From NCBI GenBank assembly GCA_036001325.1, contig DASYUK010000484.1, positions 1-52,988 of the forward strand: a stretch of 52,988 nt of DNA. Direction: 5' to 3'. The translations under genes were made by a program, and so were the position numbers. The notes under the pieces were generated by a model. It was not told the DNA's origin, searched no databases, and saw nothing but the letters and a program-made list of their open reading frames with translations. The stretch is from Thermoanaerobaculia bacterium. Its GTDB lineage: Bacteria; Acidobacteriota; Thermoanaerobaculia; Gp7-AA8. This document shows, piece by piece, positions 11,268-42,640 of the stretch (its first letter is position 1; the number at the start of each line of letters is the position of its first letter).

Positions 11268-11284
11268 CAGTCACGGGTCCCTAA

Positions 11285-13215: not shown

Positions 13216-13292
13216 CGGGCAGTAGCGCAGCCTGGTAGCGTACCTGAATGGGGTTCAGGTGGTCGCGGGTTCAAATCCCGCCTGCCCGACCA
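13216..13292 (+). tRNA. tRNA-Pro (GGG)
   Basis: Acceptor stem CGGGCAG/CTGCCCG, D arm TAGCGCAGCCTGGTAGCG, anticodon stem CCTGA/TCAGG with loop ATGGGGT, GGTTCAAATCC T arm, encoded CCA. Confidence 0.96.
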
Positions 13293-26688: not shown

Positions 26689-28518
26689 CTAACGCAATGA
26701 ATACCGAATGCCGGCAATGAGGCGCCTCGTCGCCGACGGATATCCGAAGACCTCGTCGTAACGCCGATTCGTGGCGTTCTCCACTTTCACGAAGGGCGTG
26801 AACGCGCCGGCGTTGTAGCGGAGCGTCACGTCCGCGGTCGTATACGCAGCGTTGATCACCGCGCCGAACGGCGCCAGATCGGTAACGTCAGGACGCTCGC
26901 CGGAGTGAATGACGACAAGTTCCGCCGACACCGGATTGAAGTCATAGCCCAGAGACAATGAGCCTGAATTTTTCGGCCTTCGCGCGAGCTGCTTTTCCGT
27001 GTCGGCATCGATCGCTTTCAACCACGTGTAGCTGACCGCGCCCGAGAAATTGCCGAGCCGCCGCGATGCTGATCCCTCGACACCATGTGCACGAGCCCGG
27101 GCGATGTTGCCGAAGCGATTCGCCGCAACGTCGTAAACGATCAGATCGTCGTATTCGCTTCGAAATGCGGTGAGCGAGATCGTCGCTTGCCGGATGTAGC
27201 GATCGAATCCGATCTCAACGTTTCGCGAGCGCTCGGCATCGAGTTGTGGATTGCCGAAGAAAGGCGCGTACAGCTCCCCGATCGCCGGAGCACGGAAACC
27301 CGCGCCGTATGCCGCTCGCCATTTCGAATTGCCTGCGATCCACGCAATCGCGACTCGAGGCGAGACCTGACTGCCGAACGTATCGAAACGATCGTACCGG
27401 GCACCCACCGCCAATTCGAGCGCACCGCTGTTGAGCTGTTTCGAGAAACGGTCTTCTGCGAAGAACGAACGGCTGTCGCGCGACCGATGACGAACGTCCA
27501 GTCCGAACGAGTCGGTGTGATCAACGCTGGCGCGCTCCACTTCGACGCCGATCGTGATCACGCCCGCGACGCTGCGCCGCGACTGTGCCGTCAGACGTGC
27601 CGTGCGGCTCGACGCATCGGTATTGCCGAACTCCGCCCCGAAGGGAGCGTCCGGATCGCCGAACTTCTCGCTCCGCTCGCTGTCGGATAAGCGCAGGTCG
27701 TACTGAATGTCCGCCGCTCTGAAGCGAATCGGCAGAGCGATCTGTGATTCGGAACCTTTCTCGCGCCGATGCAGCGTCGGCACGAATGCGGTGAACGTGC
27801 GGTTCACGTTGCGCGGGATGCCGAGGTCATAGCGGTTGTTTCGGGCGACGAGAGCGAGAGACAGATTTGGTTGCGGCGTTGCCTGCACTCCGGCCACGAC
27901 CGTGTCGGCAGTGAAATCATCATTCGGCGCAAAACCGTCATCATCGCGATGCTCGATGGCGCCGTGCATCGTCCAGATGCCTTTCACCAGCGCACCCGAC
28001 ACGAGACCGTTTCTCAAGCCATTTCCGCCGCCGGCCACATCGACGCGCAATTCGCTCTGCGTCGGGGTCGTCAGGACGTTCACCACACCGCTGACCGCTT
28101 CTGAACCATAGAGTGCCGAGTAAGGTCCGCGAATGATCTCGATCTTCTCGACGCCGGCGGTCGAAAGCTGGCCGAAGTTGTAGCCGGAGAGATAGGGATT
28201 GTTCATCTGCACGCCGTTCCATAGAACGAGCGCCTGCTTGGAGCTGCCGCCGCGGATGAAGAGACTGGTGAACTTCCCCGGCGATCCGGTGCGCGCGATG
28301 GCGAGGCCCGGCACTTCGCGAAGAACGTCGGCGACGTCGCGCGCCTGCTGCTTGTCGATGTCTTCGCGGGTGATCACGCTGACCGCCGCCGGCGTCGATT
28401 CGAGGCTCTCCGGAATCGATGACGCGGTGACGACGATCCGCTCGCCGACGCTCGGCGTCTGTGCGGCGAGCGAAACACTGGTGATGAAGATGAGAACGGC
28501 GACGAGAAACGGCTTCAT
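26689..28518 (-). CDS. btuB: TonB-dependent cobalamin receptor
   Basis: Signal peptide, plug motifs (IVVTAS, DVLREVPG, IEIIRGPYSALYGSEAVSGVVN) and a beta-barrel C-terminus; lies directly downstream of a cobalamin riboswitch. Confidence 0.88.
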   Translation of the reverse strand: MKPFLVAVLIFITSVSLAAQTPSVGERIVVTASSIPESLESTPAAVSVITREDIDKQQARDVADVLREVPGLAIARTGSPGKFTSLFIRGGSSKQALVLWNGVQMNNPYLSGYNFGQLSTAGVEKIEIIRGPYSALYGSEAVSGVVNVLTTPTQSELRVDVAGGGNGLRNGLVSGALVKGIWTMHGAIEHRDDDGFAPNDDFTADTVVAGVQATPQPNLSLALVARNNRYDLGIPRNVNRTFTAFVPTLHRREKGSESQIALPIRFRAADIQYDLRLSDSERSEKFGDPDAPFGAEFGNTDASSRTARLTAQSRRSVAGVITIGVEVERASVDHTDSFGLDVRHRSRDSRSFFAEDRFSKQLNSGALELAVGARYDRFDTFGSQVSPRVAIAWIAGNSKWRAAYGAGFRAPAIGELYAPFFGNPQLDAERSRNVEIGFDRYIRQATISLTAFRSEYDDLIVYDVAANRFGNIARARAHGVEGSASRRLGNFSGAVSYTWLKAIDADTEKQLARRPKNSGSLSLGYDFNPVSAELVVIHSGERPDVTDLAPFGAVINAAYTTADVTLRYNAGAFTPFVKVENATNRRYDEVFGYPSATRRLIAGIRYSLR

Positions 28519-28559
28519 GGCAACTCCTTCCCTCCGAAGAGGCCAGATTGAGGTGAAGC

Positions 28560-28745
28560 GTCTGAAGCAGCCGGTCTCCTGGCTTCCGGGTCATCCTCAC
28601 CACGCTCCCTTCCCGCTTTCGCAGTGGGGGTCGATCGCGACCGTGCGTGGATCGTCTCCGGTTACAGTGGCGGGGGCCGCGCCGGCATCACACCGGCTTC
28701 CCTCGAGCGAACGCACCCGCGTCCGCTCATGCCGCATCAGAACTC
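28560..28745 (-). promoter_or_regulatory. Cobalamin (AdoCbl-class) riboswitch
   Basis: Minus strand reads GGGAAGCCGGTGTGATGCCGGCGCGGCCCCCGCCACTGTAA ... CCCACTGCGAAAGCGGGAAGG ... AAGCCAGGAGACCGGC. A CCTC-TTCG-GAGG hairpin sits next to the btuB RBS. Confidence 0.95.
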
Positions 28746-28767
28746 AGTTGTGAAAGAACGAGCATGG

Positions 28768-30041: not shown

Positions 30042-30131
30042 GGAGGAGTGGCCGAGTGGTTGAAGGCAGCGGTCTTGAAAACCGCCGTACGGGAAACCGT
30101 ACCGTGGGTTCGAATCCCACCTCCTCCGCCA
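30042..30131 (+). tRNA. tRNA-Ser (TGA)
   Basis: GGAGGAG/CTCCTCC acceptor stem, anticodon loop CTTGAAA, long variable arm, GGTTCGAATCC, encoded CCA. Confidence 0.96.
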
Positions 30132-30189: not shown

Positions 30190-30283
30190 GGAGAGATGGG
30201 TGAGTGGCTGAAACCAGCGGTTTGCTAAACCGCCGTACGGGCTCAAACCTGTACCGAGGGTTCGAATCCCTCTCTCTCCGCCA
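30190..30283 (+). tRNA. tRNA-Ser (GCT)
   Basis: GGAGAGA/TCTCTCC acceptor stem, anticodon loop TTGCTAA, long variable arm, GGTTCGAATCC, encoded CCA. Confidence 0.96.
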
Positions 30284-30432: not shown

Positions 30433-30861
30433 ATGGCCAATACCAGCAAGCGCGGTTTTGCGTCGATGGATCCGTCGAAACAGCGTGAGATCGCAAGCAA
30501 GGGCGGGAAGGCGGCGCACGCCAAAGGTACCGCTCACGAATTCACATCGGACGAGGCTCGGGTCGCCGGCCGGAAGGGCGGCGAGGCGGTCAGTCGGGAC
30601 AGAGCGCACATGTCGGCCATCGGTCGGGAGGGTGGTCACAGCCGCGGCGCGCGCGCCCGCGCATCGCAATCACCGGGCAGCAGCAATACCACCAGCGACT
30701 TTGTTCGCTCTTCGGGAAGCCAGTCGTTCGAGCGACAGGTGAATGCGGAACGGAGCGGGTTTGAAGGCGGCAACCGTCCCGGCAATCAACAGCGCAGTGG
30801 CGAGCGCGATCGCGGCCTGAACGCGTCCGAACGGCCGTTCGCCCGCCGCGAAGAGATTTAA
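30433..30861 (+). CDS. KGG-repeat stress-induced protein (GsiB/YciG-like)
   Basis: RGFASMDPSKQREIASKGG, AHEFTSDEARVAGRKGG and HMSAIGREGG repeats; RBS AAGGAG. Confidence 0.9.
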   Translation: MANTSKRGFASMDPSKQREIASKGGKAAHAKGTAHEFTSDEARVAGRKGGEAVSRDRAHMSAIGREGGHSRGARARASQSPGSSNTTSDFVRSSGSQSFERQVNAERSGFEGGNRPGNQQRSGERDRGLNASERPFARREEI

Positions 30862-33821
30862 TGCAGCGTCCTCTCCCCGCGCAGCGGGGAGAGGCCGAGC
30901 TTCAGCACCTCCGCGAGATGCAATGGTTGTCGTCCAGTCGCCTGAGCGATCTGCTCGCGGCAACTGAATCCATCGGCGATGATCAGCGTGTCCTCGCTCG
31001 CTTCACGAACCGCAGGCAGAATCACCCGCTCACCCACCCGCATCGCCACGTCGTAATGCTCGCGCTGAAATCCGAAGGCGCCCGCCATCCCGCAGCATCC
31101 GGAATCGGGATGCTCCAGATCGAGCCCGATCTTCCTCAGCACCGCTTCCTCGGCATCGAAGCGCATGATCGACTTGTGATGGCAGTGCGCCTGAACGAGA
31201 GCCTTGCGCCGGAGCTGCGGTAATGGAAAGCGATCGCCTTCGCGCTGAATGAATTCGGACAAGGTCATCGCCGAGCGGGCCAGCTTCGCCGCGTACTCGT
31301 CACGCGGAAAAAGATTCAGCAGCTCGTCGCGAAAGACCGAGACGCAGCTCGGCTCGAGACCGACGATCGACAATCCCTCATCGAGCACCGGCCGCAGCGC
31401 GTCGAGCGTCTCGCGCAACAGGCGCTTGGCCATTCCGAGAAATCCCCAGTCGTAAAGCGGGCGTCCGCAGCAGAGGCTCTCCTTCGGCAGGACCACTTCG
31501 TAGCCTGCGCTTTCGAGAATTTCGGTCGCAGCGCGCGCGGTCTCCGGCGTGAAGTAGTTGTTGAACGTGTCGGGCCACAGGAAGACGCGTTTGCGCGCGA
31601 GATCCGAAGTTTGAGGTTCGAACTTCGAAGTGAACGTTTCGCGTGCAAATTGCGGCATGCGACGCTGCGGTGCGATCCCGGCGAGATGTTTGAGCAGCGG
31701 TAAGCGCATCAGCGCGTTAGCGATGTCAGGCGCCGCTCGCGACGCACGCGCCCACCAATAGATCCAACCCATCGCATAAGCGGCCGGCGGCCGGATTCGA
31801 CCTTTGTAGTAGTGCGACAGGAACTCCGCCTTGTAGGTCGCGACGTCGACACCGGTCGGGCACTCGCCCTTGCAACCTTTGCACGCCAGGCAGAGGTCGA
31901 GTGCATCTTTTACCGCCTCGTTGCGCCACGTGCTGGGGACGGCCTGGCCGTTGAACATCTCGAAGAGAAGACGTGCGCGACCCCGCGTGGAATGCTCTTC
32001 CTCGCGTGTGACCTGGTAGCTCGGACACATCGTTCCGCCGTCGAGACGCCGGCAGCGCCCGACGCCGACGCAGCGCAATACCGCGCGACTGATCCGCCCT
32101 TCATCTTCGGCGAACGCGAAATGCGTCTCCGGGCTCCACGGATCGAAGTTCGCGCCGAGTCGAAGATTCTCATCGGGTTCATAGGGGGTGATCAGTTTGC
32201 CGGGATTCATCTTCCAGTCGGGATCCCACGCCGACTTGAATTCACGGAACGCGGCGATCAGCTCCGGGCCGAACATCTTCTCGAGCAGCGCACCGCGCGC
32301 CTGACCGTCGCCATGCTCGCCGGAGAATGAGCCGCCGTAGGAAGCGACAAGATCGGCCGCGGCGTCGAGAAATGCGCGGAACTTCGCGATCCCCTCTTTC
32401 GACATCAGATCGAAGTTCGTGCGCGTGTGGACGCAGCCCTGACCGAAGTGACCGTATAGGTCGCCGAAATAGCCGTAGCTCTCCAGCAGCTTACGAAGGT
32501 CGCGCAGATATCTGCCGAGCTTCTCCGGAGCGACGGCGGCATCCTCCCACCCTTCCCACATGAGCGGCCTGCCGGGAACGTGCGCGGTCGCGCCGAGACC
32601 TGATTCGCGCACAGCCCAGATCATCTGCTCCTGACGCTTGTCCGCGGCGAGGAACATCGACGGCGCGGCAGCCGCGCCAGAAAGCGCAACCATCAACCGT
32701 CGTGCGTTCGCGTCAGCTTCGCTCTGCGTTTGGCCACCGAACTCGAGGAGGAGCCATCCACCGCCCGGCGGCAGCAGCGCGATGCCTCCCGGATTCAATC
32801 CCTTCGACTTCATGTCGCGCACGAGGAGGTCATCGAATCCTTCCAGGCCGATCGGGCCGAACTCGAGGAGTCGCGGCACGTCGTCCGCGGCGTCGTACAC
32901 GGACGGATATCCGAGGACGAGAAGGGAGCGGGCGGGAGGGGAGTCGACGAGGCGACATTTCGCCTCGAGCACGATCGCGCATGTGCATTCGCTGCCGACG
33001 AGAGATCGCGCAACGTGAAAACCGTTCTCGGGAAGCAGCTCGTCGAGGTTGTAGCCCGAGACGCGCCGCGGGATCTTTGGATAGCGCGCGCGAACGAGAT
33101 CGCCGTACGTGTCGCGAATCTTCTTTAGTCGCGAATAGATGTCTGCGACTCTTCCGCTTGCGCGCTGAATCTGATCGTCGCTCGTTGCGCCGACGCGCAT
33201 TCGGGTGCCGTCGTAGAGAAGCACATCGAGCTCCTCGATGTTATCGACGGTCTTCCCCGCCATCAGCGCGTGGACGCCGCACGAGTTGTTGCCGATCATT
33301 CCCCCGATCGTGCAGTGCGAATGCGTGGCGGGATCGGGACCGAACGTGAGCTTGTGCTGTTCGGCGCGCACGCGCAGATCGTCGAGGACGATGCCGGGCT
33401 CGACGCGCGCGAACTTCCGGCCGGCATCGAGCTCGATGACCCGATTCATGTACTTCGAGAAATCGAGGACGACCGCGACGTTGCAGCATTGCCCGGCCAG
33501 ACTCGTCCCCGCTCCACGCGCGAGGATCGGCGCGCCGAATTTGCGCGCCAGCTCGATCGTGGCGATCACATCGTCAGCTCGTTTCGGCACGACGACACCG
33601 ATCGGCACCTGTCGATAGTTCGACGCGTCCGTCGAGTAGAGCGCGCGCGCGCCATCATCGAAGCGCACCTCTCCTTCGATCGTGCGCGTGAGCGCAGCAG
33701 CGAGCGCTGCGGCATCGACATTCAGATTCTGCAGCCGGTCGCGATGCTCGACGCGGTTGCGCACCGGCCGCTCAGGATGAGGGAACGCCAACGGATCGTA
33801 GCGGTTGATCTCCCGACTCAT
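30858..33821 (-). CDS. FAD-binding and 4Fe-4S-binding oxidoreductase (GlcD/YdiJ-like)
   Basis: YSTDASNY, RGAGTSLAGQ, FGPDPAT, GGMIGNNSCG, SGEHGDG, CVGVGRC, CLACKGCKGECP and CCG motifs. Confidence 0.93.
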   Translation of the reverse strand: MSREINRYDPLAFPHPERPVRNRVEHRDRLQNLNVDAAALAAALTRTIEGEVRFDDGARALYSTDASNYRQVPIGVVVPKRADDVIATIELARKFGAPILARGAGTSLAGQCCNVAVVLDFSKYMNRVIELDAGRKFARVEPGIVLDDLRVRAEQHKLTFGPDPATHSHCTIGGMIGNNSCGVHALMAGKTVDNIEELDVLLYDGTRMRVGATSDDQIQRASGRVADIYSRLKKIRDTYGDLVRARYPKIPRRVSGYNLDELLPENGFHVARSLVGSECTCAIVLEAKCRLVDSPPARSLLVLGYPSVYDAADDVPRLLEFGPIGLEGFDDLLVRDMKSKGLNPGGIALLPPGGGWLLLEFGGQTQSEADANARRLMVALSGAAAAPSMFLAADKRQEQMIWAVRESGLGATAHVPGRPLMWEGWEDAAVAPEKLGRYLRDLRKLLESYGYFGDLYGHFGQGCVHTRTNFDLMSKEGIAKFRAFLDAAADLVASYGGSFSGEHGDGQARGALLEKMFGPELIAAFREFKSAWDPDWKMNPGKLITPYEPDENLRLGANFDPWSPETHFAFAEDEGRISRAVLRCVGVGRCRRLDGGTMCPSYQVTREEEHSTRGRARLLFEMFNGQAVPSTWRNEAVKDALDLCLACKGCKGECPTGVDVATYKAEFLSHYYKGRIRPPAAYAMGWIYWWARASRAAPDIANALMRLPLLKHLAGIAPQRRMPQFARETFTSKFEPQTSDLARKRVFLWPDTFNNYFTPETARAATEILESAGYEVVLPKESLCCGRPLYDWGFLGMAKRLLRETLDALRPVLDEGLSIVGLEPSCVSVFRDELLNLFPRDEYAAKLARSAMTLSEFIQREGDRFPLPQLRRKALVQAHCHHKSIMRFDAEEAVLRKIGLDLEHPDSGCCGMAGAFGFQREHYDVAMRVGERVILPAVREASEDTLIIADGFSCREQIAQATGRQPLHLAEVLKLGLSPLRGERTLH
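30870..30894. repeat. Family-B-like hairpin inside the 3' end of the oxidoreductase CDS
   Basis: CCTCTCCCCGC-GCA-GCGGGGAGAGG perfect hairpin; encodes part of LSPLRGER on the minus strand. Confidence 0.55.
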
Positions 33822-33855: not shown

Positions 33856-34785
33856 GTGAATCGTCTTCTCGCCCTGATCGTGCGCTTCGGCACTCCTCTG
33901 GTGTGGCTCAACGTGTTCGTCGAGCAGATCGGCGTTCCGATTCCCGCGGTGCCCACTCTCGTCATCGCCGGAGCGTTGTCGCGCGATGGCAAGTTGTCGT
34001 CGACACTCATTCTCACGGGCTCAGTCATCGCTTCGGTCGCCGCCGACTGGATCTGGTTCCTTCTCGGCCGCCGTCTGGGCTATCGCGTTCTGCGAACTCT
34101 CTGCCGCATCTCTCTCTCGCCCGACTCGTGCGTTCGCGACACCGAGGCTCGATTCGAGCGCTGGGGAATGCCGTCGCTGCTGTTCGCGAAATTCGTACCG
34201 GGATTCGCGACGATCGCCCCACCGCTCGCCGGGGCGACGAATCATTCCACGATCGAGTTCCTGATTTACGACGCCGCGGGAGCATTTCTGTGGGCCGGTG
34301 CCGCCGTCGCCGCCGGCCACATTTTTCACGGCGCGGTCGAACGCGTCCTGCGCGCGCTGGAGAACCTCGGCGCGTGGGCCGTGCTCTTCGTCGTCTGTGT
34401 GCTCGCGATCGTCATCGTGGTCAAGTGGTGGCAGCGCCGTCAATTCATGCTGCGCATGCGCCTGGCCCGCGTCACGCCGCAAGAGGTCATGCAGATGCTC
34501 GAGAACAGTCAGCCACCGGTGATCATCGACGCGCGCTCGGCAACAGCGCGCAAACGCGACCCGCGCCGGATCGCGCGCGCCGTGGTGATTCCTGTCGACT
34601 CGATGACCGAAAATCTCGCGGACATCGCGCGCGATCGCGAGATCGTCGTCTATTGCACGTGACCGAACGAAGCGTCAGCGGCCCGTGTGGCCGCACGACT
34701 CATCGAACAGGGCTTTGAAATCGTGCGGCCCCTCGCCGGAGGGCTCGACGCCTGGGCGGATGCGGGCTACCCGCTGGAAAGTTAG
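33856..34785 (+). CDS. DedA(VTT)-rhodanese fusion, probable selenoprotein (in-frame TGA at 34660-34662)
   Basis: DedA motifs (EQIGVPIPA, FAKFVPG) and a rhodanese domain (IIDARS...IVVYCT-TGA-PNEASAARVA...VRPLAGGLDAW). The frame stays open to TAG at 34783-34785. Start GTG 33856. Confidence 0.85.
34678..34694 (+). promoter_or_regulatory. Candidate bacterial SECIS hairpin
   Basis: GCGGCC-CGTGT-GGCCGC stem-loop starting 15 nt after the TGA, with GT in the apical loop; extendable by CGT/ACG pairs across a CA bulge. Confidence 0.6.
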
Positions 34786-36020
34786 TCCTTCAGCACTTCC
34801 ATGAGGTAGTTGGAGACCTCATCCGATCGAATCAACGCCAGCTTCGAGATGATGTCGCGCTTGAGCTCCGGATTCTTTTCCTTGCGCGCGAGACCGATGA
34901 GGGCCTTCGCGTTCTGCTGCAGGAACAGACCCTGGATCACGGAGTGACGCACTTCGAGACTCGAGTCACTCTCGTACAGCGAGACGAGAAGGTCGCCCGT
35001 ACGAGCATTGCCCATCAGGCCGAGGTTGCGGATCGCCGTTGCGCGCAGCTCAGGCACTTTCTCGTTGCGGGCGATATCGGCGAGCTTGTCGGCGCTGCCG
35101 CCGATGAACATCGCCTGGATGATGCGTTTGCGGATCTCCACCGACGTTTCCGTGTTGTAGAGATCGGCCAGCTCATTGCGCGCGCCGATGATTCCGAGCT
35201 GGCGCACGGCATCGCCGCGCAGCTCGACGATCGGCTCCCCTTTTGCCAGCGCGAGCAGACGGGAGCGGTCGCCGGCGATCATGTACGACTTCAAAATGCT
35301 CCTTTTGATCTTTATATCGTTCGTTGAAGCGTAGACATCGGCGAGGACCTTGCGCGATTCTTCCCCACCCATGATGCCGAGATAGCGAACCGCTTTCTGC
35401 TGCAGGTCGGGACGCGCGCTGTCGCGAGCGACGCGACCGAGGACCTCTATCGCACGCGGGGAGTGCGACTGACTGAGGACGAAGATGGCGCGCTCCTTCA
35501 CGCGCGGCGAGCCGTTGCCGGAGATGATCTTCTCCAGGATCGGCAGCGCCTTCTCGGGATCGGATCCCATCAGTCCGTTGAGCGCCATCAGCTTCACGTC
35601 TTCGTCGGTGAATTGCTCCGGCTCGACATGCTGACCCGATGACTGGCGGATCTCCACTTCCAGCGCCTTGCCGTCCTCGGCCCAGTGACTCTTGGGAAAT
35701 GCCTTCTCGAGCTCGAGCAGTGTGGCCAGCGCTTCGGCGCGCTGCCCCAACTCGTTCTGCGCGCGACTGAGCCAGTACAGCGACGCATCAGCGTGCTCTC
35801 CCTGGAGACGTGCAACCTGCCGGAAAAGCCGCGCCGCCCGCGTCCAGTCCTTTTCGTCGAGAGCGTCGGTCCCCTCGTCATAGAGATCGGCTTCGCGCTC
35901 CATCGACTTCGCTTTGCGCTCTTTCTCTTTATGCTTCTCCGGCGCGCCGGCGACGGCAAATGCTGGTGATGTCACCAGCATCAGGACCAGCACACTAGAT
36001 GCGATTCGATTCACGATCAT
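34782..36020 (-). CDS. Exported TPR/HEAT-repeat protein
   Basis: Signal peptide (MIVNRIASSVLVLMLVTSPAFA), TPR-like ASLYWLSRAQNELG, and repeated HEAT-like helices (ALPILEKII, KERAIFVLSQ, AIRNLGLMG). Start ATG 36020; the longer ORF-track call overlaps the anti-sigma gene. Confidence 0.85.
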   Translation of the reverse strand: MIVNRIASSVLVLMLVTSPAFAVAGAPEKHKEKERKAKSMEREADLYDEGTDALDEKDWTRAARLFRQVARLQGEHADASLYWLSRAQNELGQRAEALATLLELEKAFPKSHWAEDGKALEVEIRQSSGQHVEPEQFTDEDVKLMALNGLMGSDPEKALPILEKIISGNGSPRVKERAIFVLSQSHSPRAIEVLGRVARDSARPDLQQKAVRYLGIMGGEESRKVLADVYASTNDIKIKRSILKSYMIAGDRSRLLALAKGEPIVELRGDAVRQLGIIGARNELADLYNTETSVEIRKRIIQAMFIGGSADKLADIARNEKVPELRATAIRNLGLMGNARTGDLLVSLYESDSSLEVRHSVIQGLFLQQNAKALIGLARKEKNPELKRDIISKLALIRSDEVSNYLMEVLKD

Positions 36021-36750
36021 TGTCTTTCCTCGGTGTTGGATTCGATGTTTCGGCGCTGATGACGCGCACTTTGAACAGGAGCCCTTTCGCTTCGATCCGT
36101 TTCTGAAGCTCGGCGAGCTCATTGCTGCTGAGTGTTGTCCCCGCATGCGAGATCTCGATGAGCACCGGCTCGAGATCGGCGAGCACGCTGGCGATGCGCT
36201 CGTTGCCATTCTGCGTTGCGGTCTGACGATAGATTCGATTGGTGGCGACAAGCTCTCCGGCGCGCCGGCGCTCGTTCTCGATGTCGAGGTTCTTCTGCGG
36301 ATCAGCGTTCGCGACTTCGAGTAGCACGCTCTCCGTGCTGTCGAGATGATCGCCGACGACGAGAAGGAGAATGCGATCACTGTGGTCACGCGGTAGGGCA
36401 GTTACGGAGGGTGGCGTGGTCGCGATCGGCACGACCTCGTGTTTTGCGCGCCAGAAATGTCCGGCGAAGAATGCCACGGCCAGTGCGGCTGCAACGGCGA
36501 GACCGGAGATCCAACCGGCTTTGCGTCGTCGATCGCTCCCGAGTTTCCACCGAAGGCGATTCCAGATCTGCGTTCCGTAATCATCGCTGCGCTCCGGAAC
36601 AGGAGCTTCCGCGACGAGCATGAGCACGCGCCGGATCGTCTCGTACTGTGCGAAGCAGTCGGCGCATGCACCGAGATGTTCGGGAACACCCTTCGGCTCA
36701 TCGTCCTGGTAGTAGTGCGATACGAGTTGTTCTTCTGTCAGGTGCGGCAT
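35995..36750 (-). CDS. Zinc-finger (ZAS-type) transmembrane anti-sigma factor
   Basis: EHLGACADC (HxxxCxxC), one TM helix (GLAVAAALAVAFFAG), and position directly downstream of the ECF sigma. Confidence 0.85.
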   Translation of the reverse strand: MPHLTEEQLVSHYYQDDEPKGVPEHLGACADCFAQYETIRRVLMLVAEAPVPERSDDYGTQIWNRLRWKLGSDRRRKAGWISGLAVAAALAVAFFAGHFWRAKHEVVPIATTPPSVTALPRDHSDRILLLVVGDHLDSTESVLLEVANADPQKNLDIENERRRAGELVATNRIYRQTATQNGNERIASVLADLEPVLIEISHAGTTLSSNELAELQKRIEAKGLLFKVRVISAETSNPTPRKDNDRESNRI

Positions 36751-37319
36751 GGCGTCGACCTCACAAATGGTTCCAACGACTCGCGAAGCTTCCGCACCGC
36801 GCGGAAGATCGTATGCTTGGCGGCATTGACTTGAATGCCGAGCGTCCTGCCGATCTCTTCGACCGGCATTCCTTCGAAATGGCGGAGCATGAACGCTGTA
36901 CGCTCATTCCCGCTGAGGCGATCGAGCGCGGAGACGACGTGCTGCTGCAACTCCGCGCTCAAGAGCAGGCGATCGGGTTGCGGATCGGTGGACTCGAATT
37001 CGCGGATCATCTCGCCATCCTCACTGTCGTTGACGCGATGCTTTTCGTGACGTCCGCGGGAGCGGAGGAGATCGAGCGAGCAGTTGATCGCGATTCGGTG
37101 CACCCATGTGCCGAAGTTCGCGCGCTCCTCGAACCTGTCGATCTGTCGATACGCCCGAAGAAATGTCTCCTGCACCACATCGTCGGCATCGTGTTCGTTC
37201 CCGGTCATGCGATACGCCACTCGGAAGATGGCCCGACTGTGCCGCTCGACGAGAGTTCGGAAGGCATCCGCATCGCCGCCTCTGGCCCGGCTCACGGCCG
37301 CGAGATCGGTCAATTCCAT
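36738..37319 (-). CDS. ECF RNA polymerase sigma factor
   Basis: AFRTLVERH, DADDVVQETFLRAY, FGTWVHRIAINCSLD and region-4 ERTAFMLRHFEGMPVEEIG...IFRAVRKLR. Start ATG 37319. Confidence 0.93.
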   Translation of the reverse strand: MELTDLAAVSRARGGDADAFRTLVERHSRAIFRVAYRMTGNEHDADDVVQETFLRAYRQIDRFEERANFGTWVHRIAINCSLDLLRSRGRHEKHRVNDSEDGEMIREFESTDPQPDRLLLSAELQQHVVSALDRLSGNERTAFMLRHFEGMPVEEIGRTLGIQVNAAKHTIFRAVRKLRESLEPFVRSTPCRT

Positions 37320-37329
37320 CTCGGACAGG

Positions 37330-37357
37330 TTAGACTCGGAAACTCCTAAGCGGTTAG
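37330..37357 (-). promoter_or_regulatory. Candidate ECF-type autoregulatory promoter
   Basis: Minus strand reads CTAAC-N17-GTCTAA, ending 11 nt before the sigma ATG. Confidence 0.45.
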
Positions 37358-37359
37358 CC

Positions 37360-37569
37360 ATGCGTGATTTCGGCCGCATTCTCATCATCTGCGGGATCGT
37401 GTTCATCGTCCTCGGACTCGTCCTCACGGCGGCGCCGCGCCTCGGCATCGGACGCCTTCCCGGCGACTTCGTCTATCGCCGCGGCAGTTTCACGTTCTAC
37501 TTCCCGCTGATGACATCCGTTCTTCTCTCGCTTGCACTTACGCTGGTTCTCTGGCTTTTTCGCAGATAA
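37360..37569 (+). CDS. DUF2905 family small membrane protein
   Basis: GRILIICG...LGIGRLPGDF...FTFYFPLMTSVLLSL pattern. Confidence 0.85.
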   Translation: MRDFGRILIICGIVFIVLGLVLTAAPRLGIGRLPGDFVYRRGSFTFYFPLMTSVLLSLALTLVLWLFRR

Positions 37570-38930: not shown

Positions 38931-39743
38931 ATGACCTACATCCACGGCACGAGCCCGGAGGAGCAGCGCCGTTTGTCGCTGATGAACGATGTGCTGCTCA
39001 ATACCGCGGAGCTGCGCGAGCTCAGTCTTCGGAGCGACGAGAAGATCATCGACTTCGGCTCGGGCCTCGGACAATTCACCCGCGCGATGGCGCGAGCGGT
39101 TCCGCGCGGACACGTCGTCGGGATCGAGCGTGATGAGAAACAGCTCGAAGGCTCGAAGCGGCTGGCTCGCGACGAAGGCGAGCCCGACCTCGTCGACTTC
39201 CGCCGCGGCGATGTCCTGCAACTCGATCTGCCACAATCGGAATGGGGAACGTACGACGTCGCACACGCGCGCTTCGTGCTCGAGCACGTTCCCGATCCGC
39301 TGCGCGTAGTGCGCAATATGGTGCGCGCGGTTCGCTCGGGCGGGCGCGTCGTCCTCGCCGACGACGATCACGAAGTCCTGCGCCTGTGGCCAGAACCGTC
39401 GGGAGTCACCGAGCTGTGGCGCGCGTACATGCGCACGTACGACCGCAACGGAAACGATCCGTTCATCGGACGGCGGCTGGTTTCGCTGCTCCATGCCGCG
39501 GGAGCGCGTCCGGCGCGCAACACCTGGATCTTTTTCGGCGGATGCGCAGGGATGGAGAGCTTCGAGGTGCTCGCCGCCAACATGCTCGGTGTCGTCAAGA
39601 CAGCGCGTCAGGCGATGGTCAATGCCGATCTGATCGAAGAATCGGCCTTCGACGCCGCGGTGCGGAACTACGAGGCGTGGGCGCGCCGCCCCGACGCATC
39701 GCTCTGGTTCTCGATGTGCTGGGCCGAAGGAACGAAGCGCTGA
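38931..39743 (+). CDS. Class I SAM-dependent methyltransferase
   Basis: MTYIHG N-terminus, IIDFGSGLG, VVGIE, GDV, YDVAHARFVLEH and RSGGRVVL motifs. Confidence 0.9.
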   Translation: MTYIHGTSPEEQRRLSLMNDVLLNTAELRELSLRSDEKIIDFGSGLGQFTRAMARAVPRGHVVGIERDEKQLEGSKRLARDEGEPDLVDFRRGDVLQLDLPQSEWGTYDVAHARFVLEHVPDPLRVVRNMVRAVRSGGRVVLADDDHEVLRLWPEPSGVTELWRAYMRTYDRNGNDPFIGRRLVSLLHAAGARPARNTWIFFGGCAGMESFEVLAANMLGVVKTARQAMVNADLIEESAFDAAVRNYEAWARRPDASLWFSMCWAEGTKR

Positions 39744-39767
39744 CGTGGTACCGGCCGTGCAACTGTC

Positions 39768-40589
39768 GTGTCCGATATGGGCGCGGCAGCGACGGCCACC
39801 GTGATCGATCCGCGGGCGCGTGAGTTCTATGTGCGTGCGCTCGGAAAGCTCGACGAAAACAAGCTTCCCTATCTCGTCGGCGGCGCGTACGCTTTCGCGC
39901 GCTACACAGGGATCGCGCGGCACACCAAAGACTTCGACATCTTCATCAGGCGCACTGATTTCGATCGCGCCGCGGACACTCTCGCGAAGGCCGGCTACAA
40001 GACCGAGCTGACCTTTCCGCACTGGATCGGCAAGGCGTACGACGGCGACGACTTCATCGATCTGATCTTCAGCGCCGGAAACGCAGTGGCGGAAGTCGAT
40101 GAGGTCTGGTTCCAAAATTCCGTTCCTGAAATCGTCCTCGGTCTCGACGTGCGGCTCATTCCAGCGGAAGAGATGCTGTGGTCGAAAGGCCTGATCATGG
40201 AGCGCGAGCGTTACGACGGTGGCGATGTTGCGCACATCCTCCTCGCACTCGGTCCGGAGCTCGACTGGCGGCGCCTCATCGATCGCTACGGCAAGTACTG
40301 GCGCGCGCTCTTCGCCCATCTGATCCTTTTCGGATTCATCTATCCGTCGGATCGCTCGCGGATCCCGAAGTGGGTGATGGACGAGCTCGGAAGCCGGCTG
40401 GCCCGCGAGCTCAAAGAACCTGATGGGAAAGAGAAGATCTGCTACGGCACGATCGTCTCGCGGCAGCAGTACCTCAAAGACATCATGGATTGGGGATACA
40501 GAGATGCCCGCCTTCAGCCGCTCGGCAACATGAGCGCCGAGGACATCGCGGTATGGACGAAGGGCATCGAGATCGATGGAGCGAAGTGA
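39768..40589 (+). CDS. Nucleotidyltransferase family protein (Pol-beta fold)
   Basis: LVGGAYAF...RHTKDFDIF (GG...DxD) and FIDLIF motifs. Start may be GTG 39768 or the ATG three codons later. Confidence 0.82.
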   Translation: MSDMGAAATATVIDPRAREFYVRALGKLDENKLPYLVGGAYAFARYTGIARHTKDFDIFIRRTDFDRAADTLAKAGYKTELTFPHWIGKAYDGDDFIDLIFSAGNAVAEVDEVWFQNSVPEIVLGLDVRLIPAEEMLWSKGLIMERERYDGGDVAHILLALGPELDWRRLIDRYGKYWRALFAHLILFGFIYPSDRSRIPKWVMDELGSRLARELKEPDGKEKICYGTIVSRQQYLKDIMDWGYRDARLQPLGNMSAEDIAVWTKGIEIDGAK

Positions 40590-41338
40590 ACGAAGAAACG
40601 ATTCGGATCGCGGCAGTCGGTGACCTGCACACGCAGAAGGGTGCTCAAGGCGTGTTTCAGTCTCTATTCAAGGAGATGAGTGAGCGCGCGGACGTCGCGT
40701 TGCTCTGCGGTGATCTGACGGACAACGGGGCGATTGAAGAAGGGGAAGTGCTCGCCCACGACATCAGCTCCTCGCTGCGCATTCCGGCGATCGCGGTTCT
40801 TGGCAACCACGACTTCGAGGCCGCGCAGGAGGCGCAGTTGGTCCGGATGCTCACGCAAGCGGGAGTGGTGGTGCTCGACGGCGGCGCACACGAAATGAAC
40901 GGCGTCGGCTTCGTCGGCGCGAAGGGCTTCATCGGCGGCTTCGGCCGGCGACAACTCGGCGCCTGGGGCGAGCAGAGCATCAAGGCTCTCGTTCACGAAT
41001 CGCTGGAGGAAGCGCTGAAGCTCGAGGCCGCGCTCGCGCGCTTACGAACGCCGCAGAAAATCGCCGTGCTCCACTACGCCCCGATTCAGGCGACGGTCGA
41101 AGGCGAGCCGCCGGAGATCGTTCCGTTCTGCGGCTCCAGCCGGCTGGAAGAGCCGCTCGACCGATATCGAGTCACCGCCGTTTTCCACGGACACGCACAT
41201 CACGGAACCCTCGAAGGACACACGCGCGGCAACGCGCCGGTGTTCAATGTGGCCATGCCGCTGCTGAAGCGAACGTTTCCCGATCGCCAGCCATACAAGC
41301 TGTACGAAGTTCGGATCGGCGTAGAATCGCCGGTCTGA
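40586..41338 (+). CDS. Calcineurin-like metallophosphoesterase
   Basis: AVGDLH, LCGDLTD, VLGNHD, VLHYAP and FHGHAH motifs; GTGA overlap with the nucleotidyltransferase stop. Confidence 0.92.
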   Translation: MNEETIRIAAVGDLHTQKGAQGVFQSLFKEMSERADVALLCGDLTDNGAIEEGEVLAHDISSSLRIPAIAVLGNHDFEAAQEAQLVRMLTQAGVVVLDGGAHEMNGVGFVGAKGFIGGFGRRQLGAWGEQSIKALVHESLEEALKLEAALARLRTPQKIAVLHYAPIQATVEGEPPEIVPFCGSSRLEEPLDRYRVTAVFHGHAHHGTLEGHTRGNAPVFNVAMPLLKRTFPDRQPYKLYEVRIGVESPV

Positions 41339-42612
41339 TGAGGCATCCCGCTTTCAATGGCGGCGTCACGCGCGACCAGCTCCTCGATTGGTATCGCTCG
41401 ACGCGCGCGCGAACGCGGAAGCTGTTCGACATTCCGCGTCCCGAGTATTACTACGAGCGCCCGATCGCACTGCGCAATCCCATCGTCTTTTACGAGGGCC
41501 ACCTCCCCGCGTTCTCTGTGAACACGCTGATCAAGCTCGCGCTGAAGAAGCAGGGCGTCGACAGCGAATACGAGCGGCTCTTCGAGCGGGGCATCGATCC
41601 TGAGGACGAGACGGCTGTGCGGAACGGCTCATCGCTCTGGCCATCTCGCGATAAGGTCCAAGCCTACGGAGCCGCCGCCGACGCCGCGATCGAGCATGCG
41701 CTGCGCTGCGATCGTATCGTCGACGAAAACGTTCCGCAGCTCCGCGGCGGCGAAGCCGCACTCTGCCTGCCCGAACACGAATTAATGCATCAAGAAACAT
41801 TGCTCTATATGTTTCACAATATGGAGTACGATAAGAAAATACGACCTCAGTGGAGCGCCGGTGTCCTCACCGGCGCCGCTGAGGACAGCGGCGCCCCACC
41901 GAGCGTACGCATCCCTGCCGGAATCGCGACGCTCGGTAGCGACCACGACTTCGGTTGGGACAACGAGTTCCCCGCGCATACCGTCGAGGTCGATGCCTTC
42001 ACCGTCGACCGCTACAACGCCACGAATGGCGAATTCCTCGACTACATGAACGCCACCGGCGCGTCTCCGCCGCACTTCTGGCTTCGCAAAGATGGCCAGT
42101 GGTTCTGGCGCGGCATGTTCGAGCTCATCCCTCTGCCACTCGACTGGCCGGTATATGCGATGCACGACGAAGCTGAGGCATTCGCCAGGTGGAAAGGAAA
42201 GCGCCTGCCGAGCGAAGCGGAGTATCACCGCGCCGCGTTCGGCACATCTTCGGGTGAAGAGCGTCAGTTCCCATGGGGCGATGAGCTACCTGACCACAGC
42301 CGTGGCAACTTCGACTTCGCGCACTGGGATCCCGTTCCGGTCGGCTCGTATCCGAACGGCGCGAGCGCATGGGGTGTTCACGACCTCGTCGGTAACGGTT
42401 GGGAGTGGACATCGACCGTCTTCGACGGATTCAGCGGATTTGAACCGATGGCATCGTATCCGATTTATTCGACCGATTTTTTCGATGGCCAGCACTACGT
42501 CTTGAAAGGCGGATCGCCGGCTACCGGGCGCGAGCTCATCCGCCGGAGTTTTCGCAACTGGTTCCGCCCGAACTATCCCTATCTCTACGCGACCTTCCGG
42601 TGCGCTTCATAA
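41338..42612 (+). CDS. DinB_2 + FGE-sulfatase non-heme iron enzyme (EgtB/OvoA sulfoxide synthase family)
   Basis: RPIALRNPIVFYEGHLPAF, HELMHQE (HxxxHxE), FGWDNE, LPSEAEY and DLVGNGWEWT motifs. Confidence 0.85.
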   Translation: MRHPAFNGGVTRDQLLDWYRSTRARTRKLFDIPRPEYYYERPIALRNPIVFYEGHLPAFSVNTLIKLALKKQGVDSEYERLFERGIDPEDETAVRNGSSLWPSRDKVQAYGAAADAAIEHALRCDRIVDENVPQLRGGEAALCLPEHELMHQETLLYMFHNMEYDKKIRPQWSAGVLTGAAEDSGAPPSVRIPAGIATLGSDHDFGWDNEFPAHTVEVDAFTVDRYNATNGEFLDYMNATGASPPHFWLRKDGQWFWRGMFELIPLPLDWPVYAMHDEAEAFARWKGKRLPSEAEYHRAAFGTSSGEERQFPWGDELPDHSRGNFDFAHWDPVPVGSYPNGASAWGVHDLVGNGWEWTSTVFDGFSGFEPMASYPIYSTDFFDGQHYVLKGGSPATGRELIRRSFRNWFRPNYPYLYATFRCAS

Positions 42613-42640
42613 TGGTTCGCGTTATGCACTTTCGGGGTGC

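What the first reader, a model, noticed from the sequence alone, without database searches (positions are those of the whole stretch)
33856..34785. Hidden selenoprotein: DedA-rhodanese fusion with a CxU active-site loop
Seen: the ORF track stops at VYCT-TGA (34660-34662), but the frame continues 40 codons as PNEASAARVAARLIEQGFEIVRPLAGGLDAWADAGYPLES, completing the rhodanese fold (GGLDAW signature). It ends at TAG 34783-34785, overlapping the convergent gene's stop by the usual few bases. A GC-rich hairpin with a GT-containing loop begins 15 nt after the TGA. Established: DedA/rhodanese fusions typically read YCxCPNE here; bacterial Sec insertion needs UGA plus an immediately downstream SECIS. 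Inference: Sec replaces the second Cys, giving a membrane-bound seleno-sulfurtransferase. Standard pipelines would truncate it or call it a pseudogene.
Basis: partly seen in the sequence, partly recalled or inferred. Interest (0 to 1): 0.85.

Follow-up and report, generated by a model that had tools for sequence, protein, structure and literature searches.

The report
Overlooked DedA–rhodanese selenoprotein gene
The apparent stop codon inside this membrane-protein gene is almost certainly read as selenocysteine, so it encodes a full-length selenium-containing enzyme that annotation pipelines cut short in more than a hundred related soil-bacterial sequences.

Summary
The + strand gene 33856-34785 encodes a 309-residue DedA/VTT membrane domain fused to a rhodanese domain. 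It is interrupted only by TGA 34660-34662 in the motif VYC-T-TGA-PNE.

- **TGA conservation:** the same codon is TGA in all 83 sequences examined, 80 of them species-level genomes, mostly Thermoanaerobaculia/Acidobacteriota.
- **Downstream coding:** the codons after the TGA evolve like coding sequence.
- **Cys homologues:** these read C-x-C-P-N-E at this spot.
- **TGA as a stop:** TGA is otherwise the commonest true stop in the window.
- **SECIS hairpin:** the hairpin 15 nt downstream meets all four published bacterial SECIS criteria. It shows suppressed synonymous change and one covarying pair built from two third-codon positions.
- **selD link:** in seven related contigs the gene sits about 1 kb from a selD that itself has TGA at the classical Sec position.

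Not shown: selA, selB or tRNA-Sec in any genome, and the biochemical function.

Rhodanese selenoproteins with a CxU motif are already catalogued (NCBIfam NF041203), and Cys-type DedA–rhodanese fusions are known. The Sec-containing fusion is absent from the 2026 inventory and from NCBIfam, so I rate it a new variant of a known kind.

The parts
33856..34785 (+). Complete DedA–rhodanese selenoprotein gene: 309 codons including Sec-UGA, GTG start, TAG stop.
   Evidence: The start at 33856 agrees with the N-termini of homologues. tblastn of the read-through protein spans all or nearly all of residues 1-309, across the TGA, in the 80 genomes.
33856..34440 (+). DedA/VTT membrane domain, residues 1 to about 195. 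The Pfam VTT_dom match covers residues 29-155 (33940-34320). The last transmembrane helix is followed by the basic linker KWWQRRQFMLRMRLAR.
   Evidence: PF09335, 46.8 bits. (DedA and UptA models hit below their cut-offs). (the AF2 model of the Cys-form P0158 is all-helical up to residue 201). (alignment to E. coli YghB).
34102..34131 (+). Subfamily-specific motif LCRISLSPDSCVR with the invariant Cys83 (34102-34104) and Cys92 (34129-34131) in a loop of the DedA domain. This is a possible second redox pair.
   Evidence: Invariant in alignment A1. At least 90% conserved in the Cys-form fusions of alignment A3. Absent from E. coli YghB. The role is inferred only.
34474..34761 (+). Rhodanese domain, residues 207-302. 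It is complete only if the TGA is read through.
   Evidence: PF00581, 45.8 bits. (PDB rhodaneses). (AF2 model of the Cys-form; Foldseek hits to single-domain rhodaneses).
34654..34662 (+). Active-site triplet: Cys267 (TGC 34654-56), Thr268 (ACG), Sec269 (TGA 34660-62).
   Evidence: TGA in 83/83 sequences. Aligned to the second Cys of CxCPNE in Cys-form homologues. In the AF2 model of the Cys-form, the triplet is the 3-residue loop between strand 264-267 and the helix that starts at Pro271.
34674..34699 (+). Bacterial SECIS-like hairpin. The core stem is 34678-34683 with 34689-34694, the apical loop is CGUGU 34684-34688, and the lower stem is GUC with GAC.
   Evidence: MFE -17.3 kcal/mol for the 46-nt stretch. 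(96.7% of cells paired in 75 sequences; pair 24-36 is GC 28, CG 26, GU 13, AU 1). (reduced synonymous variation). (CGT, or rarely CGG, at the loop). (criteria).
34663..34782 (+). The 40 codons after the Sec codon, forming the C-terminal third of the rhodanese fold and including the GGLDAW motif.
   Evidence: Mean pairwise differences at codon positions 1, 2 and 3 are 0.125, 0.137 and 0.475 in 82 sequences. No in-frame stop occurs for 39-68 codons in any relative.

Best explanation
Window 33856-34785 (+) is one gene for a 309-residue selenoprotein of an uncultured Thermoanaerobaculia bacterium (Acidobacteriota).

**Recoding.** UGA 34660-34662 is most likely recoded as selenocysteine. The mRNA hairpin 15 nt downstream (core 34678-34694, loop CGUGU) acts as a bacterial SECIS. 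It would recruit SelB·GTP·Sec-tRNA(Sec) to the ribosome paused at the UGA (inferred from the standard bacterial mechanism).

**Product.** An N-terminal DedA/VTT polytopic membrane domain carries a C-terminal rhodanese domain. The basic linker suggests the rhodanese domain is cytoplasmic. The active-site segment reads Cys267-Thr-Sec269-Pro-Asn-Glu. Cys267 sits right after the central beta-strand, which is the canonical rhodanese catalytic position. Sec269 caps the N-terminus of the following helix.

**Chemistry (inferred, not tested).** The Cys/Sec pair is a redox-active, chalcogen-carrying centre. It could cycle between selenol/thiol and selenenylsulfide, or carry a persulfide or perselenide. 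It would act on a sulfur or selenium species handled at the membrane by the DedA domain.

Sec coding is shown by comparative evidence. The substrate and physiological role are not.
For: 1. All 120 best homologues (59-95% identical) are about 268 aa and end in ..YCT.
2. The codon is TGA in 83/83 sequences: the window, 80 species-level genomes, and P0048's two contigs L001 and L002. The downstream peptide PNEA[ST]AARVAR...RPLxGG[LF][DE][AG]W is conserved.
3. Downstream codon-position diversity is 0.125/0.137/0.475, which is the pattern of translated sequence.
4. Cys homologues have Cys at this spot. Examples are YCTCPNEASAA in stand-alone rhodaneses and C-x-C-P-N-E in 53 full-length DedA–rhodanese cluster representatives. 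Another 32 representatives end exactly before the codon.
5. TGA is a normal stop here. It ends 18 of 39 window genes and is the true terminal stop of this gene in 46 of 82 sequences.
6. The hairpin meets the four bSECIS constraints in PMC13188914:
   - a 5-nt loop and a 6-bp stem;
   - G at loop position 2, followed by U;
   - 21 nt between the UGA and the loop;
   - MFE of -17.3 kcal/mol.
7. The stem is paired in 96.7% of cells. One pair covaries (GC 28, CG 26, GU 13, AU 1), and both of its partners are third positions of Ala codons.
8. The loop Arg codon is CGT in 76 of 80 distinct sequences, although CGT is only 4.7% of Arg codons in this gene family. The only alternative seen is CGG, which matches the consensus G[G|U].
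9. Third-position diversity is 0.246 in the hairpin codons against 0.531 in the rest of the extension.
10. A selD homologue lies about 1 kb downstream on the same strand in L022, L023 and L027, and next to the gene in L085, L086, L089 and L117. It has TGA at the position of E. coli Cys17, the classical Sec site. 78 of the 80 metagenomic loci carrying a relative of this SelD have TGA there; a TGT match was seen once.
11. Selenoproteins have been reported in Acidobacteria: 3 families and 4 proteins in PMC1794560.
Against: - No selA, selB or tRNA-Sec gene was found in the window or in about 2 Mb of flanks of relatives. The only 'selB' hits are LepA.
- The source genome is not in the accessible collections, so the Sec machinery of this organism is unverified.
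- The hairpin is not thermodynamically exceptional. The z-score is -1.6 in the window and about 0 in five relatives, whose MFE structures differ.
- Only one stem pair covaries. The others are invariant and so say nothing either way.
- Sequence alignments disagree on which of the two residues corresponds to the canonical catalytic Cys.
- No experimental data exist on selenium incorporation or on activity.
Confidence: 0.88

Rival explanations
1. The UGA is read through, but the inserted residue is not selenocysteine. Candidates are Cys carried by a tRNA(Sec)-like tRNA through SelB, or Ser, Cys or Trp from a suppressor or 'allo-' tRNA.
For: PMC5389517 reports tRNA(Sec)-like allo-tRNAs in Acidobacteria that may act as nonsense suppressors. 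It also reports selC* tRNA(Cys) species in other phyla that could insert Cys at UGA. The comparative data here prove translation through the codon, not the identity of the residue.
Against: - The conserved SECIS-type hairpin with the G[U/G] loop is the signature of SelB-dependent decoding.
- A Sec-type selD is linked to the gene in seven contigs.
- If Cys were the product, a TGC or TGT codon would be simpler. The many Cys-form relatives use one.
- TGA ends 18 of 39 window genes, so general suppression would be costly.
Confidence: 0.06
2. Translation really stops at the TGA. The product would be a 268-residue DedA protein with a truncated, non-functional rhodanese stub. The downstream conservation would then reflect something else, such as a separate small ORF or a regulatory RNA.
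For: Gene callers and NCBI annotate it this way. Sec insertion is never fully efficient, so some truncated product probably exists.
Against: - The 36 codons after the TGA are more conserved at positions 1 and 2 (0.125, 0.137) than the 36 codons before it (0.41, 0.31). Position 3 is free (0.475). They always stay in the same frame as the upstream part, with no indels at the junction.
- These codons supply the GGLDAW part, without which the Pfam rhodanese match (207-302) is incomplete.
- Full-length Cys-form orthologues are colinear across the site.
Confidence: 0.04
3. The TGA is a sequencing or assembly error, or a recent nonsense mutation (pseudogene). Alternatively, TGA is reassigned genome-wide to a sense codon.
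For: None beyond the bare presence of an in-frame stop.
Against: - TGA is identical in 83/83 independent assemblies at 50-95% protein identity.
- TGA is the commonest ordinary stop in the window (18/39). It is also the true stop of this gene in 46 of 82 sequences, which excludes reassignment.
Confidence: 0.01

Closest known systems
Rhodanese-related (seleno)protein, 'LYCAU' family. [quoted passage not shown]
   Same: - It has a single rhodanese domain with Sec two residues after a conserved Cys (CxU).
- Relatives of the window gene read LYCTU or LYCAU.
- It is the best NCBIfam hit, covering residues 197-308.
- Cys-containing counterparts exist.
   Different: - The score of 77.7 bits is below the family cut-off of 115.
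- The known family is modelled as a protein of about 126 aa. Here the domain is the C-terminus of a 309-aa membrane protein.
- The loop continues as an invariant PNE[AS], and the DedA part carries its own invariant Cys pair.
Cys-type DedA–rhodanese fusion proteins of the COG0586 DedA subfamily, for example P. aeruginosa PA1209 (PMC10127716, PMC12893004).
   Same: - Same architecture: an N-terminal PF09335 domain and a C-terminal PF00581 domain.
- 53 of the 150 best cluster representatives are full-length fusions of about 300-390 aa reading C-x-C-P-N-E, colinear with the window protein at 32-45% identity.
   Different: - They use Cys where this gene has UGA/Sec.
- Their function is itself unknown. 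PMC10127716 says the connection of the rhodanese domain to UndP 'is unclear'.
DedA-family undecaprenyl-phosphate flippases (E. coli YghB/YqjA, UptA).
   Same: Same VTT/DedA fold family. The Glu equivalent to YghB Glu39 is retained, as are the two re-entrant-loop Pro/Gly motifs.
   Different: - In the alignment, YghB Asp51 corresponds to Val, Arg130 to Lys, and Arg136 to Ala or Ser.
- Scores against the UptA and DedA equivalog models are far below their cut-offs.
- No rhodanese domain is present in those proteins.
Sec-containing selenophosphate synthetase SelD.
   Same: It is a second gene with a conserved in-frame TGA at a Cys/Sec position in the same bacterial lineage. It lies physically adjacent in seven contigs.
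   Different: It is an unrelated protein family. It serves here only as evidence that this lineage decodes UGA as Sec, and as a possible functional partner.

Membership tests
Bacterial selenoprotein gene (Sec-UGA plus bSECIS) | In-frame UGA conserved among orthologues from different species | tested here: met
   TGA in 83/83 sequences, including 80 species-level genomes. All 120 best database hits end at the same residue.
Bacterial selenoprotein gene (Sec-UGA plus bSECIS) | UGA aligns with a conserved Cys in homologues (Sec/Cys pair) | tested here: met
   YCTCPNEASAA in stand-alone rhodaneses. C-x-C-P-N-E in 53 full-length fusion representatives. Cys268 and Cys270 are invariant in alignment A3.
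Bacterial selenoprotein gene (Sec-UGA plus bSECIS) | Sequence downstream of the UGA evolves as coding sequence in the same frame | tested here: met
   Codon-position diversity is 0.125/0.137/0.475 over 36 codons in 82 sequences. The frame stays open for 39-68 codons in all of them.
Bacterial selenoprotein gene (Sec-UGA plus bSECIS) | bSECIS consensus: apical loop of 3-9 nt, upper stem of 4-16 bp, G in the first two loop positions (G[G|U]), 16-37 nt between UGA and loop, MFE <= -7.5 kcal/mol (PMC13188914) | tested here: met
   The loop is CGUGU (5 nt), the stem is 6 bp, the spacing is 21 nt, and the MFE is -17.3 kcal/mol (criteria). The element is conserved, with one covarying pair. Caveat: folding energy is no better than that of shuffled sequence.
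Bacterial selenoprotein gene (Sec-UGA plus bSECIS) | selA, selB, selC and selD present in the same genome | tested here: inconclusive
   selD with its own Sec-TGA is adjacent to the gene in L022, L023, L027, L085, L086, L089 and L117. selA, selB and tRNA-Sec were not found in the window or in any fetched flank. Whole genomes could not be read, and the source contig is not in the collection.
Bacterial selenoprotein gene (Sec-UGA plus bSECIS) | Selenium demonstrably incorporated (75Se labelling or mass spectrometry) | not testable with these tools
   Experimental test only.
NCBIfam NF041203 rhodanese_LYCAU (CxU rhodanese selenoprotein) | Whole-protein score at or above the curated cut-off of 115 bits | tested here: not met
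   77.7 bits, covering residues 197-308. The Cys-type stand-alone relative P0123 scores 77.1.
NCBIfam NF041203 rhodanese_LYCAU (CxU rhodanese selenoprotein) | LYC-x-U motif at the rhodanese active site | tested here: met
   The window reads VYCTU. Relatives read LYCTU, and LYCAU in L036 and L055.
Rhodanese homology domain (PF00581) | Pfam gathering score, the alpha/beta fold, and a Cys immediately after the central beta-strand | tested here: met
   45.8 bits against a cut-off of 22.2. The AF2 model of the Cys-form has pLDDT 90.7, with strand 264-267 followed by Cys268. Foldseek hits to single-domain rhodaneses have TM(target) of 0.7-0.87. hhalign places the first Cys on GlpE Cys65.
DedA/VTT family (PF09335) | Pfam gathering score | tested here: met
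   46.8 bits against a cut-off of 33.9, covering residues 29-155.
COG0586 DedA undecaprenyl-phosphate flippases (YghB/YqjA/UptA type) | The membrane-embedded charged residues Glu39, Asp51, Arg130 and Arg136 (YghB numbering). PMC10127716 names Arg130 and Arg136 as essential. Glu39 and Asp51 are taken from my own knowledge of the YghB/YqjA mutagenesis literature. | tested here: not met
   In the MAFFT alignment to E. coli YghB, Glu is kept, Asp51 corresponds to Val, Arg130 to Lys, and Arg136 to Ala or Ser. Identity is only 21-28%, so the column assignment is moderately reliable. UptA and DedA equivalog scores are far below their cut-offs.

The most novel reading that the evidence does not exclude
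The DedA–rhodanese(Sec) protein could be the membrane entry point of a dedicated chalcogen-trafficking route. The DedA domain would bring a selenium or sulfur species to the inner face of the membrane. The Cys-x-Sec centre would capture it as a selenenylsulfide, perselenide or persulfide. It would then hand it on, either to SelD or to the EgtB/OvoA/SenA-like C–S/C–Se bond-forming enzyme.

Genomic links:
- SelD is adjacent in one sublineage.
- In about 22 related genomes the gene heads an operon-like cluster. The first cluster gene starts -8 to +190 nt after its stop. The cluster is made of a SAM methyltransferase, a metallophosphoesterase and the EgtB/OvoA/SenA-like enzyme, and the enzyme is present in most of them.

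If true, it would be a candidate for the specific prokaryotic selenium uptake and delivery system that reviews say has not been identified.
Probability: 0.1. Interest if true: 0.85.

Novelty: new variant of a known kind. Interest (0 to 1): 0.55.

Why it matters
- **Annotation.** More than a hundred Thermoanaerobaculia/Acidobacteriota sequences in public databases carry this gene as a truncated 'VTT domain-containing protein'. Recognising the Sec codon corrects them. It also adds a membrane-integral member to the prokaryotic selenoproteome, which consists mostly of soluble thioredoxin-fold proteins.
- **DedA–rhodanese function.** Sec is used almost only at redox-catalytic positions. Its presence therefore says that the C-x-C/U site of the functionally unexplained DedA–rhodanese fusions, such as PA1209-type proteins, is a catalytic redox or chalcogen-transfer centre. 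That gives a concrete handle for experiments on that subfamily.
- **Selenium use in soil.** Together with the widespread Sec-type SelD, it shows that soil Thermoanaerobaculia are regular selenium users.

Tried and rejected
- **Thermodynamics of the hairpin.** Folding 46-76 nt gave z-scores of -2.0 and -1.6 for the window and about 0 for five relatives, whose MFE structures differ. Energy alone does not support the element. Only the comparative signal does.
- **Extended lower stem.** Columns 19-23 with 42-46 pair in 85% of cells, but with no two-sided covariation and with 17-24 broken pairs at two positions. It is left open and is not claimed.
- **RNAalifold.** On its own it recovered only the 4-bp core plus a spurious 2-bp helix.
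- **Rfam.** A gathering-threshold scan of the window matched only a cobalamin riboswitch and three tRNAs, so nothing was called at the hairpin.
- **Search for selA, selB and tRNA-Sec.** I ran tblastn with E. coli SelA, SelB and SelD, plus ARAGORN, on the window, the 82 DedA loci and the 80 selD loci. Only selD was found. The weak 'selB' hits are LepA/EF4.
- **Source contig.** It is not on record, so walking outward was impossible.
- **Membership in NF041203.** Rejected on score.
- **Full-length query.** The truncated window ORF was used instead.
- **Neighbour clustering.** A first attempt with raw ORFs was swamped by spurious high-GC ORFs. It was redone with a GC3 filter.
- **selD adjacency as a general rule.** Rejected. 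It holds in 3 of 80 genomes and in 4 of 80 selD loci, all from one sublineage.
- **Second recoding event.** The methyltransferase ORF 38931-39743 ends in TGA and its frame stays open. This is simply the next gene (F20 family) lying in the same frame, not a second recoding event.
Full report
**Observation.** The + strand ORF starting at GTG 33856 (an upstream TTG 33805 is also possible) ends ...DREIVVYCT at TGA 34660-34662. The same frame then runs 40 more codons (PNEASAARVAARLIEQGFEIVRPLAGGLDAWADAGYPLES) to TAG 34783-34785. That TAG overlaps by 2 nt the stop of the convergent - strand ORF 34782-36389. With Cys placed at the TGA, the 309-residue product matches Pfam VTT_dom (residues 29-155, 46.8 bits) and Rhodanese (207-302, 45.8 bits). 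The rhodanese match needs the residues after the TGA. The stem is GCGGCC 34678-83 with GGCCGC 34689-94. The loop is CGUGU, and it starts 15 nt after the TGA.

**The stop is conserved, and it is TGA.** A search of 5.8 billion proteins returned 6955 hits. All 120 best hits (59-95% identity, Thermoanaerobaculia/Acidobacteriota MAGs where named) are about 268 aa and end in ..YCT. In other words, every gene caller stopped at the same codon. A scan of one genome per species returned 80 loci in which tblastn spans all or nearly all of residues 1-309, across the stop. The codon is TGA in all 83 sequences, counting the window and P0048's two contigs L001 and L002. It is followed by the highly conserved PNEA[ST]AARVAR...RPLxGG[LF][DE][AG]W. 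Error, recent pseudogenisation and an assembly artefact are therefore excluded.

**It is translated.**
- Over the 36 codons after the TGA, mean pairwise differences at codon positions 1, 2 and 3 are 0.125, 0.137 and 0.475 (82 sequences).
- That is stronger protein-level constraint than in the 36 codons before it (0.41, 0.31, 0.51).
- The frame stays open for 39-68 codons in every relative.
- TGA is not reassigned genome-wide. It ends 18 of 39 window genes. It is also the real terminal stop of this same gene in 46 of 82 sequences.

**Sec/Cys pair.** Stand-alone rhodaneses about 50% identical to the C-terminal domain read YCTCPNEASAA. An exhaustive HMMER search of 1.84 billion cluster representatives, using the truncated window ORF, listed the 150 best. 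Of these, 53 are full-length DedA–rhodanese fusions with C-x-C-P-N-E and 32 end exactly at ..YC[TSA]. The two Cys and the Pro are invariant in an alignment of 32 Cys-form fusions. The TGA thus replaces the second Cys of a conserved CxC motif.

**SECIS.** PMC13188914 gives four constraints for the bacterial consensus. The window element meets all four:

| Constraint | Window element |
|---|---|
| Loop of 3-9 nt, stem of 4-16 bp | 5-nt loop, 6-bp stem |
| G in the first two loop positions, usually followed by G or U | Loop C-G-U-G-U |
| 16-37 nt from UGA to the loop | 21 nt |
| MFE <= -7.5 kcal/mol | -17.3 kcal/mol |

Comparative evidence adds to this:
- In 75 distinct sequences the stem is paired in 96.7% of cells, against 21-50% when the 3' partners are slid by 1-3 columns.
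- Pair 24-36 covaries (GC 28, CG 26, GU 13, AU 1). No shuffle out of 500 reached the observed covariation score.
- Both partners of that pair are third positions of Ala codons, so the covariation cannot be protein-driven.
- The loop Arg codon is CGT in 76 of 80 distinct sequences, although CGT is only 4.7% of Arg codons in these genes. The only alternative seen is CGG, exactly the G[G|U] of the consensus.
- Third-position diversity is 0.246 within the hairpin codons against 0.531 in the rest of the extension.

There are honest caveats. Folding energies are no better than those of shuffled sequence, and MFE structures differ between relatives. The other stem pairs are invariant and therefore uninformative. 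A possible lower stem is not supported by covariation.

**Sec machinery.**
- The window has no tRNA-Sec and no selA, selB or selD. Its contig is not in the accessible collection.
- In L022, L023 and L027 a selD homologue (38% identical to E. coli SelD) lies about 1 kb downstream on the same strand. It reads ..TTGG-TGA-ACK.. where E. coli has GAGCGCK, which is the classical Sec/Cys17 site.
- Of the 80 metagenomic loci carrying a relative of this SelD, 78 have TGA there. Four of those loci also carry the DedA–rhodanese TGA gene just upstream.
- This lineage therefore has a second, textbook selenoprotein gene. Selenoproteins have been reported in Acidobacteria.
- selA, selB and selC were not found in any flank. 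The weak 'selB' hits are LepA. This remains the main untested point.

**Protein anatomy.**
- An AF2 model of a Cys-form fusion (P0158, 43% identical) has pLDDT 90.7. It shows an all-helical membrane part up to residue 201, then a rhodanese alpha/beta domain.
- That domain matches single-domain rhodaneses in the PDB.
- Strand 264-267 is followed by a three-residue loop, C268-T-C270, and a helix starting at Pro271. In the window numbering, Cys267 occupies the canonical position right after the strand and Sec269 caps the helix.
- hhalign to E. coli GlpE puts the first Cys on catalytic Cys65, with a 2-residue insertion, as do two PDB alignments. The best phmmer hit, 3iwh, aligns the Sec position with the catalytic Cys without gaps. 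Which residue is the primary nucleophile is unresolved.
- The DedA part keeps the Glu equivalent to YghB Glu39. It has Val, Lys and Ala/Ser at the positions of Asp51, Arg130 and Arg136. PMC10127716 describes Arg130 and Arg136 as essential for the proposed undecaprenyl-phosphate flipping. The DedA part also has a subfamily-specific invariant motif, LCRxSLSPDxCVR, containing two Cys. A different substrate from UndP is therefore plausible (inference).

**Context.**
- In the relatives closest to the window, the gene is flanked by an ECF sigma / anti-sigma / HEAT-repeat cassette.
- In about 22 genomes it is followed directly (-8 to +190 nt) by the first gene of a cluster. The cluster is made of a SAM methyltransferase, an unknown 275-aa protein, a metallophosphoesterase, an EgtB/OvoA/SenA-superfamily sulfoxide synthase and a superoxide dismutase. 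Gene content varies between genomes, and the synthase is present in most of them.
- The window has the same cluster at 38931-43267, separated from the gene by the inverted sigma cassette.
- More distant relatives have unrelated neighbours (kpsF, pyrG). The linkage is therefore lineage-specific and only suggestive.

**Comparison with what is known.**
- Rhodanese selenoproteins with a CxU motif are already catalogued, as NF041203 'rhodanese_LYCAU' and as form 3 in PMC13188914. That model is the best NCBIfam hit, but at 77.7 bits it falls below the cut-off of 115.
- DedA–rhodanese fusions with Cys are known and functionally unexplained.
- No DedA, VTT or SNARE-associated selenoprotein appears in the 2026 inventory or in the literature searches. 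NCBIfam release 20 has no model that captures it. Public annotations truncate it.
- I therefore classify it as a new variant of a known kind: a Sec-containing, membrane-anchored version of the CxC DedA–rhodanese fusion.

**Mechanism and confidence.**
- Shown: UGA is conserved and translated, it sits at a Cys position, and it is followed by a conserved SECIS-type element.
- Inferred from the established bacterial pathway: SelB/tRNA(Sec)-dependent insertion.
- Inferred from the fold and from the general rule that Sec occupies redox-active sites: a Cys-x-Sec redox or chalcogen-transfer centre on the (probably cytoplasmic) face of a DedA transporter-like domain.
- Confidence that this is a genuine Sec-encoding gene is about 0.88. 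Confidence in any specific substrate is low.

Noticed in passing
window 38931-43267 (+); also L010-L038 directly downstream of the DedA–rhodanese gene: There is a conserved cluster of four genes:
- a SAM methyltransferase (38931-39743);
- a metallophosphoesterase (40490-41338);
- an EgtB/OvoA/SenA-superfamily sulfoxide synthase (41338-42612; OvoA_Nterm 232 bits, EgtB 198, SenA 186, all below their cut-offs);
- an Fe/Mn superoxide dismutase (42641-43267).

In about 22 related genomes the first gene of this cluster starts -8 to +190 nt after the selenoprotein gene's stop. That suggests an operon for a thio- or seleno-histidine-type metabolite.
   Followed up: partly
L022 11851-12948, L023, L027; L085-L164: The selenophosphate synthetase gene has an in-frame TGA at the E. 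coli Cys17 position (..TTGG-U-ACK..). TGA is found there in 78 of the 80 metagenomic loci carrying a relative. Gene callers start these genes downstream of the TGA, so they are N-terminally truncated in databases. A SECIS-like hairpin, GGUCA-GGA-UGACC, begins 12 nt after the TGA.
   Followed up: partly
L022 about 11250-11440 (+), between the selenoprotein gene and selD: A small ORF (MTVDSALALHPSARWVFAAYHIGGCDGCSEATDE...) matches TIGR03980, the 'hybrid cluster protein-associated redox disulfide domain'. It scores 43.6 bits, just under the cut-off of 44.95. It is a CxxC protein sandwiched between two selenoprotein genes.
   Followed up: no
window 34102-34131: An invariant Cys pair (Cys83, Cys92) lies in the motif LCRISLSPDSCVR of the DedA domain. 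It is conserved in both Sec-form and Cys-form fusions and is absent from E. coli YghB. It may be a relay partner of the C-x-U site.
   Followed up: partly
window 28552-28751 (-): A cobalamin riboswitch (Rfam RF00174, 90.9 bits) lies upstream of a - strand ORF (26689-28518) that is probably an outer-membrane receptor.
   Followed up: no
window 30042-30131 and 30190-30283 (+); 13216-13292 (+): There are two tRNA-Ser genes (anticodons UGA and GCU) about 3.6 kb upstream of the selenoprotein gene, and a tRNA-Pro (GGG). The tRNA-Ser pair plus a YdiJ-like 987-aa FAD/Fe-S oxidoreductase (30858-33821, -) are syntenic in L004-L006, the closest relatives (L003 retains the oxidoreductase and one tRNA-Ser).
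   Followed up: partly
window 34782-37448 (-): An ECF sigma factor, an anti-sigma factor and a HEAT-repeat protein form a cassette adjacent to the selenoprotein gene. The same cassette neighbours the gene in 25-32 of the related loci, usually upstream and divergent. In the window's clade it lies downstream and convergent.
   Followed up: partly
window 39741-39743: The methyltransferase ORF ends in TGA and its frame stays open for more than 200 codons. The continuation is the next gene (a conserved 275-aa protein of unknown function), which has its own ATG about 12 codons later. This is a coincidental shared frame, not recoding.
   Followed up: partly
L034 and L066: Two carriers of the TGA-form gene are labelled Rokubacteriota and Planctomycetota MAGs, whereas all the others are Acidobacteriota. 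This could be mis-binning or horizontal transfer.
   Followed up: no
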